64,000 bases of DNA from an uncultured delta proteobacterium (GTDB taxonomy: Bacteria; Desulfobacterota; Binatia; Binatales; Binataceae): assembly GCA_963813785.1 (NCBI GenBank), contig CAWFAJ010000002.1, positions 7,654-71,653 on the forward strand, written 5' to 3'. Below, in pieces: positions 2 through 62,368 of this stretch. Each line of letters begins with the position of its first letter. Position 1 is the stretch's first letter. Under the pieces are notes generated by a model. It made no database searches. It was not told the DNA's origin and was given only the letters and a program-made list of their open reading frames with translations. The translations under genes and the position numbers were made by a program.

Positions 2-340
2 TGCCGCGTCACCTATCACGACGCTTGTCACCTCGTGCACGGACTCGGGGTGCGCGAAGCGCCGCGCAAATTGCTCGCCTCGATTCCGGGCGTGACGATC
101 GTCGAGATGACGGAGTCCGATCTCTGCTGCGGTTCGGCCGGATCCTACAATTTGACCGAGCCCGCGATGGCGCGCGAGTTGGCACGGCGCAAAGCCGACA
201 ATATTGTTGCGACAGGCGCGGACTACGTCGTGCTGGCGAATCCCGGATGCGAGTTCCAGATCGCGGCCGAACTTCGCCGTCGCGGTTCGAAAATCAAGGT
301 CGTCCACCTCGCGGACTTTCTCGCGATGGCGTCTCAGTGA
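2..340 (+). CDS. C-terminal portion of a CCG-domain Fe-S oxidoreductase (GlcF/GlpC/HdrD-like); 5' end lies outside the window
   Basis: Frame 2 is open from the window edge. YHDACHL and CCGSAGSYN motifs match the tandem CCG cysteine-rich domain signature. It is a paralog of the protein at 58193..59494. Confidence 0.7.
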   Translation, partial: CRVTYHDACHLVHGLGVREAPRKLLASIPGVTIVEMTESDLCCGSAGSYNLTEPAMARELARRKADNIVATGADYVVLANPGCEFQIAAELRRRGSKIKVVHLADFLAMASQ

Positions 341-16032: not shown

Positions 16033-16075
16033 TTACTGGGTGCAGGGGTCACCCCTGCCGCCAGTGAAAAAACCG
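16033..16075. repeat. REP/MITE-like palindromic element, copy 1 (module B, inverted orientation)
   Basis: TACTGGGTGCAGGGGTCACCCCTGCC is the reverse complement of GGGCAGGGGTGACCCCTGCACCCAGTA at 59565..59590; it contains a palindromic core. Confidence 0.6.
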
Positions 16076-48300: not shown

Positions 48301-48558
48301 TACCTAGCCCATCAACTGACTTCGGGCGCGCCCACCCGAATTATTAATTCGAAATTTCCGATTTAACGCCTCGGGTCTGAATACTCATAGCTTGCCGCGC
48401 GCGCTTTAGCGCAAAGGGCTGGGCCTTACACGCAGTTTAGGTCCGGGCTCGGCCACGCCGGGTCCGATTCCGCCATTCCGACCTGGCCGAAACCTTGCTA
48501 CGATGCATGCGCGGCCGACCTGCAGCGACACACACTCTGCGAGTGCGAGGCGATCGAA

Positions 48559-55677: not shown

Positions 55678-56970
55678 ATGGCCAAAGCTGACTCCATTGT
55701 CACATTGGGCGTCGATGCGGCTCGGGCGCGTCGTCCCGCGATCATCGATCGTTTCGCGCGCGGCGCGGTTCTGAGCCGTCTGGCGGGAATCAAAACCGGC
55801 CGCATCGTGATCGAAGATGGCGACGAGCGCATCCCGTTCGGCCAGGACATCGAGGACGCCGATTTGCGCGCCACCATCCGCGTCAAGGACCGCCGCTTCT
55901 ATTCCGACATCGCGCTCGCGGGCAGCATCGGCGCCGGTGAAGCGTACATGGCCGGCTCGTGGACGACCGATGATCTGACCGCGCTCGCCCAAATCATGAT
56001 CCGCAACCGCGAAGTGATGGAGGGCATGGATGGCGGCCTGGCGCGGCTGGCCAATCCCGTCCGCCGCTTCATCCACTATCTCAATCGCAACACCAAAGCC
56101 GGGAGCCAACGCAACATCGCGGCGCATTACGACCTCGGCAACGATTTTTTCGAGCTGATGCTGGATCGCACGCTGATGTACTCGTGCGCGATCTTCGAGC
56201 GCGCCGGCGCGACGCTGGAAGAGGCGGCGACGGCCAAGGTCGATCGCATTTGCCGCAAGCTCGATCTTCGCGCCCACGATCAGCTGGTCGAGATCGGCAC
56301 GGGATGGGGCGGGTTTGCGATTCACGCGGCCAAAAACTACGGATGCCGCGTCACGACCATCACGATTTCGCGAGCGCAGCACGACTACGCCGTCAAAAGA
56401 ATCGCCGCCGAGGGCCTGGCGGATCGCATCACCGTGCTGCTCAAGGATTACCGCGACCTCAGCGGCCAGTTCGACAAGGCCGTCTCGATCGAGATGATCG
56501 AAGCGGTCGGGCATCAGTTCGTCGATTCATATTTCCGCAAATGCGGCGAGCTGTTGAAGCCCGACGGCATGATGCTGTTGCAGGCGATTACGATCACCGA
56601 CCGCGAGTATGCGGGCGCGCTCAAGCGCGTCGATTTCATCAAGAAGTACATTTTCCCGGGCAGCTTCATTCCGTCGGTCACCGCGCTGTGCGATTCGATC
56701 ACGCGCGCGAGCGACCTGCGGCTGTTCCATCTCGAAGATCTCACGCCCAATTACGCCGAGACCTTGAAGAACTGGCGAACCCGGATGTTCAACAACATCG
56801 AACGCGTGCGCGCGCTCGGATATCCGGAAGAATTCATCCGGATGTGGGAGTTCTACCTTTGCTACTGCGAGGCCGGCTTTCGCGAGCGTTATATCGGCGA
56901 CGTGCAGATGATCCTGACCAAGCCCGATTCAAGACGCGCCCCAATTCTTCCAATTCTGCCCCGGCTGTAA
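55678..56970 (+). CDS. cfa: cyclopropane-fatty-acyl-phospholipid synthase
   Basis: SAM motif LVEIGTGWGGFAIHAAKNYGCRVTTITIS; CFA-synthase C-terminal YLCYCEAGF. Confidence 0.85.
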   Translation: MAKADSIVTLGVDAARARRPAIIDRFARGAVLSRLAGIKTGRIVIEDGDERIPFGQDIEDADLRATIRVKDRRFYSDIALAGSIGAGEAYMAGSWTTDDLTALAQIMIRNREVMEGMDGGLARLANPVRRFIHYLNRNTKAGSQRNIAAHYDLGNDFFELMLDRTLMYSCAIFERAGATLEEAATAKVDRICRKLDLRAHDQLVEIGTGWGGFAIHAAKNYGCRVTTITISRAQHDYAVKRIAAEGLADRITVLLKDYRDLSGQFDKAVSIEMIEAVGHQFVDSYFRKCGELLKPDGMMLLQAITITDREYAGALKRVDFIKKYIFPGSFIPSVTALCDSITRASDLRLFHLEDLTPNYAETLKNWRTRMFNNIERVRALGYPEEFIRMWEFYLCYCEAGFRERYIGDVQMILTKPDSRRAPILPILPRL

Positions 56971-57012
56971 GCGAGCGGCCGGTCAATTTGCGCGAGCGCG
57001 GGTACATCCCGC

Positions 57013-57046
57013 TTGACAACAGCGATAACCAGATGATAATTATTAT
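57013..57046 (+). promoter_or_regulatory. promoter with a Fur/PerR-box overlapping the -10 element (autoregulation candidate)
   Basis: TTGACA (57013-57018) is followed by a 17-bp spacer. The near-palindrome GATAATTATTATC (57034-57046) then overlaps the candidate -10 element ATAATT. Confidence 0.5.
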
Positions 57047-57053
57047 CACCTAG

Positions 57054-57560
57054 GTGATGGAACTACAGCTGGTAAACGAACGACGACGCGGCCCCTATGC
57101 CGCCAAGCGCCTGTCCGAGTTCGCGGCGCGATGCCGCCACGGCGGGCTGGCGGTTACGCCGCAGCGCCTGGCGATCATCAAGGCGCTGCTCGGCTCCGGC
57201 GAGCATCCGCGCGCCGACGCGATCTTTGCCGCGGTCCGAGTGCAGCATCCTTATATTTCGCTGGCGACCGTGCATCGCACCCTGGAAACGCTGTGCGACA
57301 TCGGCGAGGCGCGCAAGGTCACGATGCTGCACGACAGCGCGCGCTACGACGGGAATGTCACCCCGCACCATCATGTGGTATGCGTCAAGTGCCGGCGCAT
57401 CCGCGATATCGAGATTCCGCAGCTTGACCGCCTGCTCGCCGGGCAATCGGAGCTGGGCGAGTTCACGGTGCTCGGCTCGTCGCTGGAGATTCACGCGCTG
57501 TGCGAGGAATGCGGGGCCAAACGCGCCAGCGCGAATCGGACAAGGAAGCCGCGGCGTTGA
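57054..57560 (+). CDS. Fur-family metalloregulator (PerR-like by context)
   Basis: DNA-binding helix LAVTPQRLAIIKAL; HHHVVCVKC...CEEC metal-site cysteines. Upstream of rubrerythrin. Confidence 0.8.
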   Translation: MMELQLVNERRRGPYAAKRLSEFAARCRHGGLAVTPQRLAIIKALLGSGEHPRADAIFAAVRVQHPYISLATVHRTLETLCDIGEARKVTMLHDSARYDGNVTPHHHVVCVKCRRIRDIEIPQLDRLLAGQSELGEFTVLGSSLEIHALCEECGAKRASANRTRKPRR

Positions 57561-57615
57561 TTTTTTAAGTCAGCTCAATCAAACCAATTGAAGTCAGACA
57601 CGGGAGAAACAAAAA

Positions 57616-58032
57616 ATGGCAAATCTCAAAGGAACCAAAACCCATCAGAACCTCAAGGATGCGTTCGCAGGCGAGAGCCAGGCTAATCGCCGCTATCTGT
57701 ATTTCGCCAAGATCGCCGACGTCGAAGGCCAGCCGGAAATCGCGGGCCTGTTTCGCGATACGGCCGAAGGCGAGACCGGACACGCCCACGGCCATCTCGA
57801 CTATCTGAAATCGGTCGGCGATCCGGCCACCGGCTTGCCGATCGGCGATTCGATGACGAACCTCAAGTCCGCGGTTCATGGCGAGACTCACGAGTACACC
57901 GACATGTACCCGGGGATGGCGAAGACGGCGCGCGAAGAGGGCTTCGCGGAAATTGCCGATTGGTTCGAAACTCTCGCCAAGGCCGAGAAGTCCCACGCGG
58001 GACGCTTCGCCAAGGCGCAGGGCACGCTCTAA
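57616..58032 (+). CDS. rubrerythrin-family di-iron protein (erythrin domain only, no rubredoxin domain)
   Basis: ExxH di-iron ligands ([17 protein letters not shown]) in a 138-aa ferritin-like fold. Confidence 0.85.
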
Positions 58033-58192
58033 GAGGGTATCGCAAACATCGCCAGCGGGCGGGCCTCCGAGAAGCCCGCCCGCTATTTCAACGGCGACGC
58101 CGCGCCGGACTGCGGTACGCGCGGTATCACGCCAGGCACGCACGAGCGCGCGCGCGCCCATATCGAAAAGTCCGCAGCCAGGATTTTTCCCG

Positions 58193-59494
58193 ATGGCCAA
58201 CCGAATCGAGGCCAGGCCGAGCGACGGCCTTTCCTACAATTCCACAGAAGCGAAGTACTGGGACCGCGCCGGACTGGACAAGGAAGTCGAGCGGGTGTTC
58301 GACATCTGTCACACCTGCCGCCTGTGCTTCAATCTTTGCCCGTCGTTCCCGGCGCTGTTCGACGCGACCGATCGCAACGACGGCGACGTGAGAGGGCTGA
58401 CGGCGGCCGAGAAAGAGCGCGTGATCGAGCTCTGCTACGGATGCAAACTGTGCGAGATCAAATGTCCCTACACGCCGCGCGACGGTCATGAGTTCCAGCT
58501 GGATTTCCCGCGCCTGATCCTTCGCGCCAAGGCGGTGAGCGCCAAGGAAGACGGCGTCAAGCTGCGCGAGCGGATCCTGGCCCGTCCCGATCAACTCGGC
58601 AAGGCGGGGGCGATGGCGCCGGCGCTGGCAAACTGGGGATGCCATCGGAAGTTTCAGCGCGTGATGATGGAAAAGCTGCTCGGGATCGATCGCGGCAAGC
58701 TGCTTCCCGACTTCGCCGCCGAGACTTTCGACCAGTGGCTCAGGCGCACCGGCCTGCCCGCAATCCCGGCGGAGCCGGCGGCGAAGGTCGCGATTTTCCC
58801 GACCTGTTTTGTCAATTACTACAACCCCGGGCCGGGCAAGGCGGCGGTCGAGGTATTTGCGAAAAACGGATGCGCGGTGAAATGCCCGAAGCAGAACTGC
58901 TGCGGGATGCCGGCGCTGGACGGCGGCGACGTCGAGTTCGCGCGCAAGGAAGCACGGGCGAATATCGATTCGATGCTGCCGCTGGTGCGCGAGGGCTACA
59001 AAATCGCGGCGATCAATCCGACCTGCTCGCTGATGATGCGCGCGGAATATCCCAACCTGCTCAGCGGCGACGAGGTCAGGGAGTTCGCCGCGGCGGTGGT
59101 CGATTCGCACGAGCTGCTCTACGAGCTGCATCGCGCCGGCAAGTTCAACAAGGAGTTTCTGTCCACGCCCGGCACTATCGCGTATCACGTCCCGTGCCAT
59201 CTCAAGGCCCAGGGTATCGGATTGCGCTCGCGCGACCTGATGCGCCAGATTCCAGGCGTGGAAGTAACCACAGTCGATGCATGCACGGCGCATGACGGGA
59301 CGTGGGCAATGAAAAAAGAGTTCTTCGCGCTCTCGATGAAATGGGGCGAGAAGGCCTTCACCGGGATGCGCGAAGCGGGAGCGCGAGTGATGGCGACCGA
59401 CTGTCCGCTGGCGGCAGTGCAAATCGAGCAGGCGACGGGAGTGCGTCCGCTTCATCCGCTGGAGGTGCTAGCGCGCGCGTACCAGCAGGGGTGA
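58193..59494 (+). CDS. Fe-S oxidoreductase with 2x[4Fe-4S] ferredoxin motifs and two CCG domains (heterodisulfide-reductase-related / GlpC-like)
   Basis: Start at MANRIEARP. CxxCxxCxxxCP x2, then two CCG domains (CCGMPALDGG; HVPCHL). The longer track ORF from 57878 overlaps rubrerythrin out of frame. Confidence 0.75.
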   Translation: MANRIEARPSDGLSYNSTEAKYWDRAGLDKEVERVFDICHTCRLCFNLCPSFPALFDATDRNDGDVRGLTAAEKERVIELCYGCKLCEIKCPYTPRDGHEFQLDFPRLILRAKAVSAKEDGVKLRERILARPDQLGKAGAMAPALANWGCHRKFQRVMMEKLLGIDRGKLLPDFAAETFDQWLRRTGLPAIPAEPAAKVAIFPTCFVNYYNPGPGKAAVEVFAKNGCAVKCPKQNCCGMPALDGGDVEFARKEARANIDSMLPLVREGYKIAAINPTCSLMMRAEYPNLLSGDEVREFAAAVVDSHELLYELHRAGKFNKEFLSTPGTIAYHVPCHLKAQGIGLRSRDLMRQIPGVEVTTVDACTAHDGTWAMKKEFFALSMKWGEKAFTGMREAGARVMATDCPLAAVQIEQATGVRPLHPLEVLARAYQQG

Positions 59495-59530
59495 CGATAC
59501 GCCGGAGCGTATGACGGGAGAACTTGATTA

Positions 59531-59590
59531 TATGCGGAACCCACCGTGGGTTCCGCACCTCCTTGGGCAGGGGTGACCCCTGCACCCAGT
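59531..59590. repeat. REP/MITE-like element, copy 2 (modules A+B)
   Basis: Palindrome TGCGGAACCCACCGTGGGTTCCGCA followed by the palindrome-containing GGGCAGGGGTGACCCCTGCACCCAGTA. Confidence 0.6.
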
Positions 59591-59737
59591 AGTAAGAAGA
59601 CGCGAAAATCTGCGCAGCGCATCTTTTCGCGACTACGCAATGGCAGGGCTGAGCCTCTGGGCGCAGTGAAAAGAGAAGAGAGAAGATGCGGGACTGCGTC
59701 CCGGTTAGAATTTCATCTGCTGCAAGGAGAATGACAA

Positions 59738-60319
59738 TTGAAGAGGATCACTTTTGAGGAAATACTTTCGCTGGGCGATTACGGACGCGTGCGCGAGCGG
59801 CTGCGGCCCTTGTTTATTCATGAGAAGGAACGGCGCCGGCTCCACGTCGGGTCGCATCTGACGCTGCTGTTCGAGAACCCGCAGACCGCGTGGTACCAGA
59901 TCGAGGAGATGATCAGGGCCGAGAAAATGACGGAGCGCGAGGCGATCGAGCACGAAATCGACACTTACAACGATCTGCTTCCGGCCGCGGGCGAAATTGC
60001 CGCGACGCTGTTAATTGAATACGCCGAGGCGCAGGAACGCGACGCCGCGTTGATCCGGCTGGTCGGCCTGGAACGCCATCTGTGGCTCAAGGCGGGCACC
60101 CAAAGGATCGCGGCCAGATTCGACGATCGCCAGATGTCAGAGGAAAGAATCAGCGCGGTGCAATTTGTCAGGTTCAGGCTGGAGGGCGTGGACGCATCCC
60201 GGTTTCTCGAACTCGCCGGCAAAGGCGAGGTATCGGTCCAGGCGGACCATCCGAGCCTGGCGGCACAGGGCGCGATCGAGGGATTGCTGGCAACCTCGCT
60301 CGCGGAGGATCTGCGCTAG
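59738..60319 (+). CDS. DUF3501-like conserved hypothetical protein
   Basis: 193 aa, acidic, no signal peptide. I recall DUF3501 genes commonly sitting next to rubrerythrin plus HdrD-like Fe-S oxidoreductase pairs. Confidence 0.45.
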   Translation: MKRITFEEILSLGDYGRVRERLRPLFIHEKERRRLHVGSHLTLLFENPQTAWYQIEEMIRAEKMTEREAIEHEIDTYNDLLPAAGEIAATLLIEYAEAQERDAALIRLVGLERHLWLKAGTQRIAARFDDRQMSEERISAVQFVRFRLEGVDASRFLELAGKGEVSVQADHPSLAAQGAIEGLLATSLAEDLR

Positions 60320-60335
60320 CGGGAGGGAGATTGAA

Positions 60336-60412
60336 TGTGAAACCCACCGTGGGTTTCACGCTTCCTTGGGCAGGGGTAACCCCTGCACCGCAGGGCTGAG
60401 CCCTGCACCCAC
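60336..60412. repeat. REP/MITE-like element, copy 3 (modules A+B plus an extra hairpin)
   Basis: GTGAAACCCACCGTGGGTTTCAC, GGGCAGGGGTAACCCCTGCACC and GCAGGGCTGAGCCCTGC. Same orientation as copy 2. Confidence 0.6.
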
Positions 60413-60418
60413 CGTTAA

Positions 60419-60690
60419 GGCCGCCCGCCGATGGCGGGCGGTCGTTGGCACGACGGGCCGTGCGATGGTCTTGGTCCAGTGCCCTCTCCTTGTCCGAGGA
60501 GAGGGTTAGGGAGAGGTGCCACGATCGAAAGAGAATGGCGACGCGGGCGTTGAACCTCTCCCGGCGCGCTAGGAATCGCGCCGACCTCTCCTCGGACAAG
60601 GAGAGGTTAGGTCGTGTCTCCCCCGGTACAAACCGGCGTCCGGTTATGCAGAGCTCTCCCTGAGAGGCGAGGAAAATACAGACGCGATGG
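60419..60690. repeat. array of at least 6 short GC-rich hairpins built around GGAGAGG/CCTCTCC motifs
   Basis: GCCGCCCGCC-gat-GGCGGGCGG; CCTCTCC-ttgtccga-GGAGAGG (60483-60504) and its exact reverse complement at 60586-60607; GGCGCG-ctaggaat-CGCGCC; AACCGG-cgt-CCGGTT; additional CCTCTC/GAGAGG copies. Confidence 0.5.
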
Positions 60691-60700
60691 GGCACAAAGA

Positions 60701-60735
60701 GGAACACCGAATCCGGCAATCCGGATTCGGTGTTC
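60701..60735 (-). terminator. perfect 15-bp-stem hairpin downstream of the NHL pseudogene
   Basis: GAACACCGAATCCGG-caa-CCGGATTCGGTGTTC, about 35 bp past the stop at 60770. Confidence 0.6.
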
Positions 60736-60769
60736 GCTGTTCGCGTTTAGTTCGTGTGGCTAGCGGCTG

Positions 60770-62368
60770 TTATTCGCAGGCTCCGTCAGCACGTACCCCG
60801 GCGTACGTGCAGGTAGGTTCCGGCGTGGGGGTAAACGCCGGCAAGGCAACGCCGACCGGCAAGTTCATTTTCGCCCCGGGATTTGCAATGACCAGCGTCG
60901 GGGGAATGTCGCCGCCTGACGTCGGGAAATCGGTAAACATCTCGAGCGAATTGTTGCCGTTGCTTACGACGTAAAGAGCCGAGTTGTCCGCGTCGATCGC
61001 GATGCCCTTGGGAGTTTTGAGTTTCGTGTGTTTGCCGGAAATCGTGCCCAGCAGTTCGCCATCGAAAGCGAAGATATTGATCATCGAAATTGGTGAAGGG
61101 ATAGAAGATTTTGATGCTGTTATCGCCCATGTCTGTCACGTACAAGTTGTCATCGAAGTCAACCGCATCACCGATCGGTTGATTCAATGAGTCCACTGTC
61201 GGACTTTCAGCGCATCTAGCGCCGCAATTACCGATGAGGGTGGTCGGAAATTGGTCGCCAACCGCGCCAGGAGGATACACGGTTACGTATCGAGGGGCAC
61301 ACGAGAGGTCGAAGGCGAGGGTGCCGGCGTTGTTGACGACAAACAGGTAGCCAATGTCGTCAAACGTGAGGTTTGCCGGCCCCGCCAGTAGAGTAAAGCA
61401 TCCGCCGATGGTGGAGTTCTGGCTATATGGCTGCAAGGGTCAACGGGTTGATCGCGTCCACCACCCATCCGCCGTAGGGAAACGAGGGCGGAATGTTGTT
61501 GAGGCCGGGAACCAAGGTCGAGCGATCATACTCGGTAATCGTGCCCAAGCTCGCGCCAGGCCCAACCGGGCCGCCGCCGCATACTCCGGGGTGTCCCGGG
61601 CTAGGTTCAATGTTCGTGGGCGCGTCCGCGCAGGCGGCCAGGCCGCACTCTCCCCCGGGGCAGTCAGGAGAACCATATACCTCGGGGAACATGTTCGCGA
61701 CGGCTAACTCATCGTGGCCGGGGTCGATTGATCCCATCGTAGGGGCTTTCAAATGCGACGCCCTGGGGGAAGAAGATGCCGGTAGTGTTGGGGAAACCGT
61801 ACGCGAAAAGGGGTGAGCAAATTATGTTTTCCGGCGCCGAGTTGCCATTGGCTTCAGGAGAGAAGATTTCGACCAAGCCAGTGCCATATAACAACGGACT
61901 CACGGTGCCGGGTGCGGGCTGTCCAAAAGGACCGCAGAGAACGCTATCGAGATCGAAAAAGTCGATCGGCATCGAGACCGCGACGTGAGCGTCCATCGAG
62001 CTCACCGAGTCGAAAGCCGCACCGGTGCTGGCGCCCAAATTGGTGTTGGTGCCGTGGACAAAAAATTTGGGCTTGGAACTGTGTCCGGCACCGGCGACAA
62101 AGGTCTCGAGGCTGCCGTCGAAAACAGCGCCATAACTCGAGACGACGACCGTGTCTTGGAGACGGCGGGCCGGGGGGGTGTTTTTAATCTTCTTCTTGGA
62201 TTTCGCGTAGCTGGTGCCCGCTGTACCCACGAGGAGCGCAGCGATCACGAACGCCACGGCCACGAGCGAAAGCCGACGAGCGACGGCGGTAAGCTTGAGC
62301 GCCCGCGCGTGCGCCAACGAGATCCCATCCCTGCCCTGAGTCATCGCCTGCATCCTTCCATGCGTCAT
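60770..62368 (-). pseudogene. NHL-repeat beta-propeller secreted protein split into four frames by at least 3 frameshifts
   Basis: Four ORFs (61709..62368 with signal peptide/TM, 61423..61752, 60786..61436, 60770..61084) form one colinear protein. NHL-like repeats LNQPIGDAVDFDDNLYVTDMGDNSIKIF and LKTPKGIAIDADNSALYVVSNGNNSLEMF are present. Confidence 0.6.

What the first reader, a model, noticed from the sequence alone, without database searches (positions are those of the whole stretch)
57013..60319. Autoregulated Fur/PerR-rubrerythrin-CCG Fe-S oxidoreductase-DUF3501 peroxide-stress module
A Fur-box-like palindrome, GATAATTATTATC, sits on the -10 of the fur-family gene. It is followed co-directionally by rubrerythrin, a ferredoxin/CCG-domain oxidoreductase and a DUF3501 protein.
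- I recall the rubrerythrin-HdrD-like-DUF3501 triad being conserved across several phyla, but its function is uncharacterised.
- Here it is explicitly tied to a PerR-like regulator. That supports a role in peroxide detoxification with electrons delivered through the CCG Fe-S protein.
- A paralogous CCG protein sits at the left window edge (2..340).
Basis: partly seen in the sequence, partly recalled or inferred. Interest (0 to 1): 0.5.

Follow-up and report, generated by a model that had tools for sequence, protein, structure and literature searches.

The report
PerR-controlled aerobic-type rubrerythrin operon
This is a real, well conserved four-gene peroxide-defence operon of an uncultured soil bacterium (Candidatus Binatus): a peroxide-sensor-type repressor sits on its own promoter and is followed by the already described rubrerythrin, iron-sulfur oxidoreductase and DUF3501 trio, so it is a new combination of known parts rather than a new kind of system.

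Summary
TGATAATTATTATCA (57034-57048) matches the 7-1-7 Fur-box consensus perfectly (1.7e-5 expected by composition). It overlaps the -10 of a TTGACA-16-GATAAT promoter, 8 nt before the ATG of a Fur-family gene. Rubrerythrin without a rubredoxin domain, a 2x[4Fe-4S]+CCG protein and DUF3501 follow on the same strand.

Comparative evidence:
- In 48 distinct loci the -35 and the box are the only conserved upstream blocks, and the central base is free.
- All 39 matches with at most one mismatch in 831 kb of related loci lie at this promoter.
- The regulator keeps all five PerR regulatory-metal ligands and the Cys4 site. It has Arg where PerR has Asn61, the change reported to switch PerR to Fur boxes, which fits the operator.
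- The same arrangement occurs in Binataceae, Eremiobacterota and half of the Acidobacteriota loci.
- Four species have katG between regulator and rubrerythrin.

The trio was published in 2016 as the "aerobic-type rubrerythrin system" (RBR, RFO, DUF3501), with co-occurrence statistics and the electron-donor hypothesis. The new points are the PerR link and the PerR-sensor/Fur-box hybrid. Peroxide response, autoregulation and the electron path remain inferred. Interest is modest.

The parts
57013..57018 (+). -35 hexamer TTGACA of the operon promoter
   Evidence: Promoter scan, 11 of 12 positions. TTGAC is at a fixed distance from the box in 48 loci, and conservation begins exactly here.
57034..57048 (.). 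7-1-7 Fur-family operator TGATAAT-T-ATTATCA, overlapping the -10 hexamer GATAAT (57035-57040)
   Evidence: Only perfect match in the window, with 1.7e-5 expected. In 48 loci the half-sites are conserved and the central base varies (T21, A15, G7, C5). The symmetric variant TGGTAATAATTACCA occurs. Of 39 matches with at most one mismatch in 831 kb of related loci, 37 lie directly upstream of the regulator start.
57057..57560 (+). PerR-type Fur-family repressor gene (167 aa). The ATG lies 8 nt after the box, so the leader is very short or absent.
   Evidence: Pfam FUR. Best NCBIfam models are PerR, though below their cut-offs. Best solved relative is B. subtilis PerR 2FE3; H50, D98, H104, H106, D117 correspond to PerR H37, D85, H91, H93, D104; Cys 109, 112, 149, 152 are present; Arg74 stands at the Asn61 position.
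57616..58032 (+). Aerobic-type rubrerythrin (138 aa, no rubredoxin domain), the peroxide-reducing di-iron enzyme
   Evidence: Pfam Rubrerythrin. E 1e-68 to B. pseudomallei Rbr (4DI0, 9ONM) and E 1e-53 to sulerythrin 1J30.
58054..58084 (+). GC-rich stem-loop just after the rubrerythrin stop codon: a possible partial terminator or mRNA-stability element that would set the Rbr:RFO ratio
   Evidence: Inverted repeat I9. Folding energy -32.5 kcal/mol, z -4.45. Conserved in 4 of 5 close loci. A hairpin of -20 kcal/mol or stronger is present in the rbr-RFO spacer of 61 of 67 loci, without a control for GC content.
58193..59494 (+). [quoted passage not shown]
   Evidence: Pfam CCG and Fer4. GlpC-like by NCBIfam. 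The start is fixed by conservation of the ATGGCCAACCGAATCGAG sequence. There are 15 invariant Cys in 67 orthologues: 8 in the ferredoxin motifs, plus C205, C236, C237, C278 and C335, C364, C404.
59495..59737 (.). 243-nt spacer carrying a REP-like repeat (59526-59586): a lineage-specific insertion inside the operon
   Evidence: Repeat family D1/D2. The gap is 3 nt in Ca. Binatus soli and roughly 45-60 nt in most loci.
59738..60319 (+). DUF3501 protein (193 aa, TTG start, AAGGAG 8 nt upstream, no cysteine)

Best explanation
This is a self-repressed peroxide-stress operon, perR-rbr-rfo-duf3501, transcribed from one promoter at 57013-57040.

Proposed mechanism:
- The encoded dimeric PerR-type repressor, loaded with Fe(II) or Mn(II), binds the 7-1-7 palindrome that overlaps the -10 hexamer and blocks RNA polymerase.
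- H2O2 oxidises a metal-ligand histidine by metal-catalysed oxidation, as in B. subtilis PerR. The repressor falls off and the operon is transcribed as an mRNA with almost no leader.
- The rubredoxin-less rubrerythrin reduces H2O2 (and probably organic hydroperoxides) to water at its di-iron site.
- RFO, with its two ferredoxin-type [4Fe-4S] clusters and CCG domains, most likely supplies the electrons in place of the missing rubredoxin domain.
- DUF3501, which has no cysteines, most likely acts as a docking or accessory subunit bound to rubrerythrin.
- A stem-loop after rbr probably keeps rubrerythrin in excess over its partners.

Shown here: the genes, the promoter and operator footprint, the residue signatures and the gene linkage.

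Inferred: which protein binds the box, the response to H2O2, co-transcription, the direction and source of electron flow, and the role of DUF3501.
For: Operator:
- Perfect 7-1-7 match, unique in the window, with 1.7e-5 expected, overlapping the -10.
- Sequence upstream of TTGACA cannot be aligned between relatives. In Ca. Binatus soli an R-M gene pair is inserted there, yet the stretch from TTGACA to the ATG is nearly invariant.
- In 48 distinct loci the information peaks are the -35 and the two half-sites, and the central base is free.
- Of 39 matches with at most one mismatch in 831 kb of related loci, 37 lie directly upstream of the regulator start. The other two are at the same promoter: in L041 the regulator gene is deleted, and L062 has an uncertain start.
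- The 250 nt upstream of rbr in the same loci give only 5-8 mismatches at best.

Regulator:
- PerR ligands H37, D85, H91, H93, D104 and both CxxC pairs are conserved in the window protein, in 19 Binatus homologues and in distant operon-linked homologues (32-38% identical in the tblastn) from Acidobacteriota and Myxococcota.
- Asp at position 104 marks PerR/Irr as opposed to Fur. Arg instead of Asn in helix H4 marks Fur-box readers (Parent 2013 and Caux-Thang 2015, as cited in PMC8638967). This matches the TGATAAT-type half-site.

Linkage:
- The regulator is directly upstream on the same strand in 41 of 46 Binataceae-like loci, 2 of 2 Eremiobacterota and 7 of 14 Acidobacteriota.
- rbr and RFO are upstream of DUF3501 in 67 of 71 loci.

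Peroxide function:
- katG lies between the regulator and rbr in L015, L017, L018 and L052.
- An aerobic-type rubrerythrin (ferriperoxin) is a proven peroxidase that is essential for aerobic growth (PMC3317640).

Rbr-DUF3501 contact:
- A natural Rubrerythrin-DUF3501 fusion exists (P0304).
- A DUF3501-RFO fusion is reported in Nitrosomonas (PMC5114695).
Against: - There is no experimental datum for this organism: no mapped transcription start, no binding assay, no expression data.
- The box is the Fur-type consensus, so the cell's housekeeping Fur could also bind it.
- The regulator scores below the cut-offs of all NCBIfam PerR equivalog models (106 bits against 180).
- In this window a strong hairpin (58054-58084) and a 243-nt insertion lie between promoter and distal genes. 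They could uncouple rfo and duf3501 from the promoter.
- The only biochemically shown electron donor for an aerobic-type rubrerythrin is FNR with NADPH, not RFO.
- The second CCG domain of RFO has lost the CCG triad (C-T-A).
- The fold of DUF3501 gives no functional hint.
Confidence: 0.72

Rival explanations
1. The palindrome is an ordinary Fur box bound by the cell's housekeeping iron-sensing Fur. The operon would then respond to iron and not to peroxide, and the encoded regulator would act elsewhere.
For: The box equals the Fur 7-1-7 consensus rather than the B. subtilis PerR box TTATAAT-N-ATTATAA (both consensus sequences are from my own knowledge; the match is). Loci that lack a cis regulator still carry Fur-like palindromes upstream of rbr.
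Against: - Box and regulator gene are inherited together at a fixed 6-9 nt spacing across three phyla.
- The regulator itself carries the Arg or Lys that is reported to read Fur-type boxes.
- Repression by iron-loaded Fur would express an iron-demanding enzyme only under iron starvation, which makes little physiological sense.
- katG inserted in the operon points to peroxide.
- No second Fur-family gene lies in the window, but the rest of the genome was not seen.
Confidence: 0.1
2. The regulator is a metal sensor (Fur, Mur or Zur-like) with no special peroxide sensitivity. The operon would serve iron storage or metal homeostasis, with rubrerythrin acting as a ferritin-like protein.
For: - Rubrerythrin belongs to the ferritin-like superfamily (weak Pfam Ferritin hit).
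- B. pseudomallei Rbr binds several metals promiscuously (bioRxiv 10.1101/2025.06.01.657255).
- The regulator scores below the PerR equivalog cut-offs.
Against: - Asp at both acidic ligand positions (D85, D104) is the PerR/Irr signature and is invariant here. Fur, Zur, Mur and Nur have Glu at position 104.
- Ferriperoxin and sulerythrin are peroxidases.
- katG co-insertion.
Confidence: 0.07
3. RFO and DUF3501 are not the electron donors. They would be maturation or repair factors, for example loading or re-reducing the di-iron site or protecting it in air, while electrons come from a general reductase such as FNR.
For: - FNR with NADPH suffices in vitro for ferriperoxin.
- Thermoproteales have rubrerythrin plus DUF3501 without RFO (PMC5114695).
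- In L053 an intact DUF3501 follows perR-katG without rbr or RFO.
Against: - RFO has the full cofactor set of an electron-transfer subunit: 8 invariant Cys in two ferredoxin motifs plus conserved CCG cysteines.
- It appears precisely where the rubredoxin domain is missing.
- The genome of L053 also holds a complete operon (L056).
Confidence: 0.15
4. The CCG protein is GlpC, the subunit C of anaerobic glycerol-3-phosphate dehydrogenase, and merely happens to lie next to rubrerythrin.
For: It scores 289.7 bits, above the 278-bit cut-off of NCBIfam NF008369 (GlpC).
Against: - It scores below the cut-off of the TIGR03379 GlpC model (194 against 280).
- It lies between rbr and DUF3501 in 67 of 71 loci across phyla.
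- In the published phylogeny GlpC is the outgroup of the RFO clade.
Confidence: 0.02

Closest known systems
Aerobic-type rubrerythrin system RBR / RFO / DUF3501 (Cardenas, Quatrini and Holmes 2016, PMC5114695; also found in mitochondria of protists, PMC7050145)
   Same: The same three proteins in the same order. The rubrerythrin lacks the rubredoxin domain and is close to B. pseudomallei Rbr and sulerythrin. RFO has two ferredoxin motifs plus CCG domains. DUF3501 is PF12007. The published co-occurrence (185 genomes with all three) is reproduced here: 67 of 71 loci.
   Different: The published descriptions I found name no regulator ('PerR' occurs 0 times in PMC5114695). Here a PerR-type gene and its operator head the operon in Binatota, Eremiobacterota and part of the Acidobacteriota. 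Binatota were not in the 2016 genome set as far as I can tell.
Bacillus subtilis PerR and its autoregulated regulon
   Same: Fur-family fold, the five regulatory-site ligands, the Cys4 zinc site, a 7-1-7 inverted-repeat operator over the promoter, and control of peroxide-scavenging genes including katG-type catalase in some relatives.
   Different: Arg74 replaces Asn61 in the DNA-reading helix, and the operator is TGATAAT-N-ATTATCA (Fur type) instead of TTATAAT-N-ATTATAA. The protein has a 13-residue N-terminal extension and a basic C-terminal tail. It scores below the PerR equivalog cut-offs.
Fur-like (perR)-rbr-rdl operon of Nitratidesulfovibrio (Desulfovibrio) vulgaris, and PerR-controlled rubrerythrins of clostridia
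   Same: A Fur-family regulator gene placed directly upstream of, and co-oriented with, a rubrerythrin gene (mentions it; Lumppio 1997 is cited).
   Different: Those are classical or reverse rubrerythrins that carry a rubredoxin domain, in anaerobes, with rubredoxin-like partners. Here the rubrerythrin is the aerobic type, with RFO and DUF3501.
Engineered B. subtilis PerR N61R (Caux-Thang et al. 2015, as cited in PMC8638967)
   Same: PerR sensor chemistry combined with Fur-box recognition through an Arg in helix H4.
   Different: Here the combination is natural, conserved in a whole clade (Arg in Binatota, Eremiobacterota and Myxococcota; Lys in Acidobacteriota), and paired with a matching operator.
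Ferriperoxin of Hydrogenobacter thermophilus (PMC3317640)
   Same: A rubredoxin-less rubrerythrin with demonstrated peroxidase activity and an essential role in aerobic growth.
   Different: Its tested electron donor was FNR with NADPH. [quoted passage not shown]
GlpC / HdrD-type CCG iron-sulfur subunits
   Same: The domain plan of two ferredoxin-type [4Fe-4S] motifs followed by two CCG domains. GlpC is the best-scoring named family.
   Different: There is no dehydrogenase or cytochrome partner in the operon. The second CCG domain lacks the CC pair. No solved structure is detectable by sequence.

Membership tests
PerR (peroxide-sensing Fur-family repressor) | Fur-family domain | tested here: met
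   PF01475, E 1e-22, covering residues 31-146.
PerR (peroxide-sensing Fur-family repressor) | Regulatory metal site made of His37, Asp85, His91, His93 and Asp104 (B. subtilis numbering), with Asp rather than Glu at position 104 | tested here: met
   H50, D98, H104, H106 and D117 align to these residues. They are invariant in 20 Binatus sequences and in 17 operon-linked homologues from other lineages. The Asp-versus-Glu criterion is taken from PMC8638967.
PerR (peroxide-sensing Fur-family repressor) | Structural Zn(Cys)4 site made of two CxxC motifs | tested here: met
   C109, C112, C149 and C152 are invariant.
PerR (peroxide-sensing Fur-family repressor) | Asn in DNA-binding helix H4 (Asn61) and a PerR-type box TTATAAT-N-ATTATAA | tested here: not met
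   Arg74 occupies the position. The operator is TGATAAT-N-ATTATCA. This is a Fur-type DNA-reading head on a PerR-type sensor.
PerR (peroxide-sensing Fur-family repressor) | Score above a curated PerR equivalog cut-off | tested here: not met
   The best model, NF052545, gives 106 bits against a cut-off of 180; NF047406 gives 85 against 200. PerR models still outrank the Fur, Irr and Zur models.
PerR (peroxide-sensing Fur-family repressor) | H2O2-triggered histidine oxidation and loss of DNA binding | not testable with these tools
   This needs purified protein with EMSA or mass spectrometry, or in vivo induction data.
Aerobic-type rubrerythrin system (RBR/RFO/DUF3501) | Rubrerythrin that lacks the rubredoxin domain and belongs to the sulerythrin/BpRbr/ferriperoxin group | tested here: met
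   138 aa with only PF02915. E 1e-68 to 4DI0 and 9ONM, and E 1e-53 to sulerythrin 1J30.
Aerobic-type rubrerythrin system (RBR/RFO/DUF3501) | RFO: a COG0247-type Fe-S oxidoreductase with CCG domain(s) | tested here: met
   PF02754 found twice, plus Fer4 motifs. 15 invariant Cys.
Aerobic-type rubrerythrin system (RBR/RFO/DUF3501) | DUF3501 (PF12007) gene co-localised with rbr and RFO | tested here: met
   PF12007, E 2e-56. The three genes are linked in 67 of 71 loci.
Aerobic-type rubrerythrin system (RBR/RFO/DUF3501) | Peroxidase activity that depends on the partner proteins | not testable with these tools
   I found no published biochemical reconstitution with RFO or DUF3501.
Fur-family 7-1-7 operator | Inverted heptamers separated by one unconstrained base, overlapping a promoter element | tested here: met
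   Perfect palindrome over the -10. The half-sites are conserved and the centre is free in 48 loci.
GlpC (anaerobic G3P dehydrogenase subunit C) | Score above curated cut-offs, and glpA/glpB partners in the operon | tested here: not met
   The protein passes NF008369 (289.7 against 278) but fails TIGR03379 (194 against 280). Its operon neighbours are perR, rbr and DUF3501, not glpAB.

The most novel reading that the evidence does not exclude
RFO together with DUF3501 is the long-missing dedicated reductase of rubredoxin-less rubrerythrins. RFO would draw electrons from a thiol or from the quinol pool through its CCG domain and pass them through two [4Fe-4S] clusters to the di-iron site, with DUF3501 as the docking subunit. 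The clade of PerR sensors that naturally read Fur-type boxes would show how a cell runs a peroxide regulon and an iron regulon on near-identical operators. The compact self-regulated operon found here would be a ready-made handle for heterologous, H2O2-inducible reconstitution of the whole system.
Probability: 0.35. Interest if true: 0.55.

Novelty: new member of a known kind. Interest (0 to 1): 0.3.

Why it matters
The aerobic-type rubrerythrin trio is widespread. At least 590 species-level genomes matched in one scan, and it also occurs in protist mitochondria. Its electron supply and the role of DUF3501 have never been tested.

- Finding it under a cis-encoded, clearly footprinted PerR-type switch in several soil phyla gives independent regulatory evidence that the whole trio, not only rubrerythrin, belongs to peroxide defence.
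- It also gives a defined promoter and operator for experiments.
- The regulator clade is a natural example of PerR sensing chemistry joined to Fur-box recognition. This bears on how Fur paralogues avoid cross-talk.
- For annotation, RFO crosses the GlpC cut-off of one NCBIfam model and is likely to be mis-named in genomes.

None of this overturns current understanding. It extends known modules to uncultured Binatota.

Tried and rejected
- Rfam search of 56900-60800 at E up to 1 gave no RNA family, so there is no evidence for a riboswitch or sRNA in the spacers.
- Sequence search of RFO against the PDB gave nothing.
- A second Fur-family gene or a second Fur-type box in the 64-kb window: none found. 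No other regulon member can be named from this window.
- The first genome scan, with a 48-sequence DUF3501 alignment, failed for lack of conserved stretches. It succeeded with 13 sequences.
- I considered whether rbr has its own operator. The best match in the 250 nt upstream of rbr has 5-8 mismatches in loci that have the cis regulator, so I rejected this.
- I considered GTG 57054 as the start codon. I rejected it because it is not conserved.
- A literature search for a described PerR link to the aerobic-type system found none in the held library. This is not proof that none exists elsewhere.

Full report
**What is in the sequence**

Region 57013-60319 holds four co-directional genes on the + strand (ORFs, Pfam):
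- a Fur-family gene at 57057-57560 (PF01475, E 1e-22);
- a 138-aa rubrerythrin without a rubredoxin domain at 57616-58032 (PF02915, E 3e-29);
- a 433-aa protein with two ferredoxin-type 4Fe-4S motifs and two CCG domains at 58193-59494;
- a 193-aa DUF3501 protein at 59738-60319 (PF12007, E 2e-56).

The upstream gene is a cyclopropane-fatty-acid-synthase-like methyltransferase that ends at 56970. In the 86-nt gap lies TTGACA (57013-57018), then 16 nt, then GATAAT (57035-57040). This is the only strong sigma-70-like site in 56800-60800, matching 11 of 12 positions.

That is a zero-mismatch match to the 7-1-7 Fur-box consensus TGATAAT-N-ATTATCA (consensus from my own knowledge of the B. subtilis work). 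It is the only such match in the window. Composition predicts 1.7e-5 such matches in 64 kb of 61% G+C DNA.

**Organism and close relatives**

The closest homologues of the regulator (82-98% identical) and of DUF3501 (76-100% identical) come from metagenomes and from MAGs named Candidatus Binatus or Binataceae, phylum Binatota. In Ca. Binatus soli and other contigs the same four genes occur in the same order.

Three details are fixed by comparison with these relatives:
- The regulator starts at ATG 57057, because the preceding GTG is lost in L004 and L009.
- RFO starts at 58193, where conservation begins.
- The 243-nt gap between RFO and DUF3501 in this window is a lineage-specific insertion. 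It carries a REP-like repeat that recurs just after DUF3501. In B. soli the gap is 3 nt.

**The operator is phylogenetically footprinted**

In B. soli a restriction-modification gene pair is inserted between the methyltransferase gene and the regulator. The sequence becomes alignable with the window exactly at TTGACA and stays almost invariant up to the ATG.

A scan of one genome per species (GTDB representatives) with a DUF3501 alignment matched at least 590 genomes and returned 80 loci. The results were as follows.
- In 48 distinct loci anchored on the box, the only information-rich upstream columns are TTGAC and the two heptamers. The centre base is free (T21, A15, G7, C5). The spacer and everything further 5' are random. 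Symmetric double changes occur, for example TGGTAATAATTACCA.
- The ATG follows the box by 3-10 nt everywhere. The mRNA therefore has a very short leader or none. This is inferred; no transcription start has been mapped.
- Over the 831 kb of these loci there are 39 matches with at most one mismatch. Of these, 37 lie directly before the regulator start. The other two are at the same promoter: in L041 the regulator gene has been lost, and in L062 my start estimate is uncertain.
- As an internal control, the best match in the 250 nt upstream of rbr in the same loci has 5-8 mismatches.

**What kind of Fur-family protein it is**

The best solved relative is B. subtilis PerR (2FE3, E 6e-22), ahead of the Fur structures. 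The alignment places H50, D98, H104, H106 and D117 on the PerR regulatory-site ligands H37, D85, H91, H93 and D104. It places C109, C112, C149 and C152 on the structural zinc cysteines. All are invariant in 20 Binatus sequences.

They are also conserved in operon-linked homologues from Eremiobacterota, Acidobacteriota and Myxococcota that are only 32-64% identical.

According to work cited in PMC8638967:
- Asp rather than Glu at position 104 separates PerR/Irr from Fur, Zur, Mur and Nur, and confers H2O2 sensitivity (Parent et al. 2013).
- Asn versus Arg in helix H4 separates PerR-box readers from Fur-box readers (Caux-Thang et al. 2015).

Here the H4 position is Arg74 (Lys in Acidobacteriota). 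That agrees with the Fur-type half-site TGATAAT found on the protein's own promoter. The protein is thus a PerR-type sensor with a Fur-type DNA-reading head. It scores best against the NCBIfam PerR models but below their equivalog cut-offs. I file it as PerR-like by mechanism, and not as an orthologue of a characterised PerR.

**The downstream trio is already described**

- They counted 185 genomes with all three genes and 25 with RBR plus DUF3501, against two exceptions among 4461 genomes.
- They proposed that RFO compensates for the lost rubredoxin domain.

Later papers treat the trio as a functional module, including in protist mitochondria (PMC7050145; PMC7760498; bioRxiv 10.1101/2025.06.01.657255).

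The window's proteins fit this description:
- The rubrerythrin is close to B. pseudomallei Rbr and to sulerythrin.
- RFO has no solved relative by sequence.

In my loci, rbr and RFO precede DUF3501 in 67 of 71 evaluable cases.

**What is added here**

- None of the papers I could find links the aerobic-type system to a regulator ('PerR' occurs 0 times in PMC5114695; searches).
- The PerR-type gene is directly upstream on the same strand in 41 of 46 Binataceae-like loci, 2 of 2 Eremiobacterota and 7 of 14 Acidobacteriota. It is divergent in 2 further Acidobacteriota, and it is present in one Myxococcota locus.
- In four Binataceae species (L015, L017, L018, L052) a catalase-peroxidase gene, katG (1318 bits to the NCBIfam model), sits between the regulator and rbr. 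In L024 and L053 the arrangement is regulator-katG-DUF3501. A second peroxide scavenger recruited into the same transcription unit is strong contextual evidence for peroxide control.
- Loci without a cis regulator (SAR324, a Lambdaproteobacteria MAG and others) carry TTGACA followed by a Fur-like palindrome of the GAGAATCATTCTC type upstream of rbr. This suggests control by a Fur-family protein encoded elsewhere.
- Natural fusions exist: Rubrerythrin-DUF3501 (P0304) and DUF3501-ferritin-like (P0275). The published DUF3501-RFO fusion argues in the same direction, for physical association of the three proteins.

**Likely mechanism and its weak points**

The best-supported reading is a self-repressed operon.
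- The metal-loaded PerR-type dimer occupies the palindrome over the -10.
- H2O2 inactivates it by metal-catalysed histidine oxidation.
- The operon is then transcribed. Rubrerythrin reduces peroxide, RFO delivers electrons, and DUF3501 (which has no cysteine) acts as an accessory or docking subunit.

A stable stem-loop follows rbr (58054-58084, -32.5 kcal/mol, z -4.45). A comparable hairpin is present in the rbr-RFO spacer of 61 of 67 loci, although I did not control for G+C content. It may attenuate read-through or stabilise the rbr message.

RFO keeps 8 invariant Cys in two CxxCxxCxxxCP motifs. In the first CCG domain it keeps C205, C236, C237 and C278. In the second it keeps only C335, C364 and C404, where the CCG triad reads C-T-A.

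The source of electrons (thiol, quinol or a reductase) cannot be told from sequence. The only donor shown in vitro for an aerobic-type rubrerythrin is FNR with NADPH (PMC3317640).

Binding of the box by the operon's own product, the response to H2O2 and co-transcription are all inferences.

**Rivals**

- A housekeeping Fur could bind the Fur-type box. Co-inheritance of box and gene, the Arg or Lys reading head and the katG insertion make this the less likely primary regulator.
- A pure metal-sensing role is disfavoured by the invariant Asp/Asp ligand signature.
- RFO being GlpC is an annotation artefact. It passes one NCBIfam GlpC cut-off (289.7 against 278) but fails the TIGR model, and it never has glpAB neighbours.
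- A role for RFO and DUF3501 in maturation or repair rather than electron supply stays open. Thermoproteales lack RFO, and L053 has DUF3501 without rbr or RFO.

**The left-edge CCG fragment**

The fragment at 2-340 is the C-terminal CCG domain of an LdhH/GlcF/TfrB-like protein with a canonical CCG triad. It is 27% identical to the second CCG domain of RFO and was not detected by tblastn at E 0.01 or better. It is a superfamily relative with no evident connection to the operon.

**Verdict**

- The parts are known: PerR-type repressors, Fur-family 7-1-7 operators, and the aerobic-type RBR/RFO/DUF3501 trio.
- Their combination appears not to have been described: a PerR sensor that reads a Fur-type box and heads the aerobic-type rubrerythrin operon, conserved across Binatota, Eremiobacterota and Acidobacteriota, with katG variants.
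- I rate it as a new member of a known kind with modest interest. Its main value is as a clean experimental handle on the still untested biochemistry of RFO and DUF3501.

Noticed in passing
window 59526-59586, 60329-60389 and 16034-16059: A REP-like GC-rich palindromic element (core CAGGGGTGACCCCTG, with GCAGGGCTGAGCCCTGCACCCA variants) flanks DUF3501 on both sides, and a partial third copy lies at about 16 kb. It accounts for the unusual 243-nt RFO-DUF3501 spacer. A copy also follows the RFO stop codon in L009.
   Followed up: partly
window 60483-60504 and 60585-60606: A perfect 22-nt inverted repeat, CCTCTCCTTGTCCGAGGAGAGG, with 80 nt between the arms, lies in the gap downstream of DUF3501. 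Its nature is unknown, and no Rfam family matches it.
   Followed up: no
window 48337-48351: A second AT-rich perfect 7-1-7 palindrome, CGAATTATTAATTCG, in an otherwise GC-rich window. It is not a Fur-type box.
   Followed up: no
L015 1277-3496; L017, L018, L052; L024 3726-5891; L053 3526-5742: The catalase-peroxidase gene katG is inserted between the PerR-type gene and rbr in four Binataceae species. In two further loci the order is regulator-katG-DUF3501 with rbr and RFO missing; the DUF3501 is intact in L053 and degraded in L024.
   Followed up: partly
L041 3936-3950; L020 6001-6519: Natural decay variants. In L041 the regulator gene is missing, but a perfect box TGATAATAATTATCA remains 98 nt upstream of rbr. 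In L020 only a 5'-truncated DUF3501 is left next to the methyltransferase gene.
   Followed up: partly
L065, L067, L074, L079, L089 (40-75 nt upstream of rbr): Loci without a cis regulator (SAR324, Lambdaproteobacteria and unclassified MAGs) carry TTGACA followed by a Fur-like palindrome of the GAGAATCATTCTC type in front of rbr. This suggests control by a Fur/PerR protein encoded elsewhere.
   Followed up: partly
proteins P0304, P0275, P0282, P0268 and similar: DUF3501 occurs fused to rubrerythrin (P0304), to a ferritin-like domain (P0275) and to an Rce1-like domain (P0282). A class of about 300 aa carries a conserved C-terminal extension of about 100 aa that matches no Pfam family.
   Followed up: partly
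window 58193-59494: RFO scores above the curated cut-off of NCBIfam NF008369 (GlpC, 289.7 against 278 bits) although it has no glpAB context. It is therefore likely to be mis-named 'anaerobic glycerol-3-phosphate dehydrogenase subunit C' in automatic annotations.
   Followed up: partly
L001-L003 3290-5736: In Ca. Binatus soli an Eco57I-like and BsuBI/PstI-like restriction-modification gene pair is inserted between the methyltransferase gene and the operon promoter. This conveniently marks the 5' edge of the conserved promoter.
   Followed up: no
L030 3454-3807: One Binataceae genome has, in place of the usual regulator, a 38%-identical Fur-family gene that lacks both CxxC motifs and has Asn at the helix-H4 position (Irr-like or PerRA-like). 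It has no recognisable box upstream.
   Followed up: no
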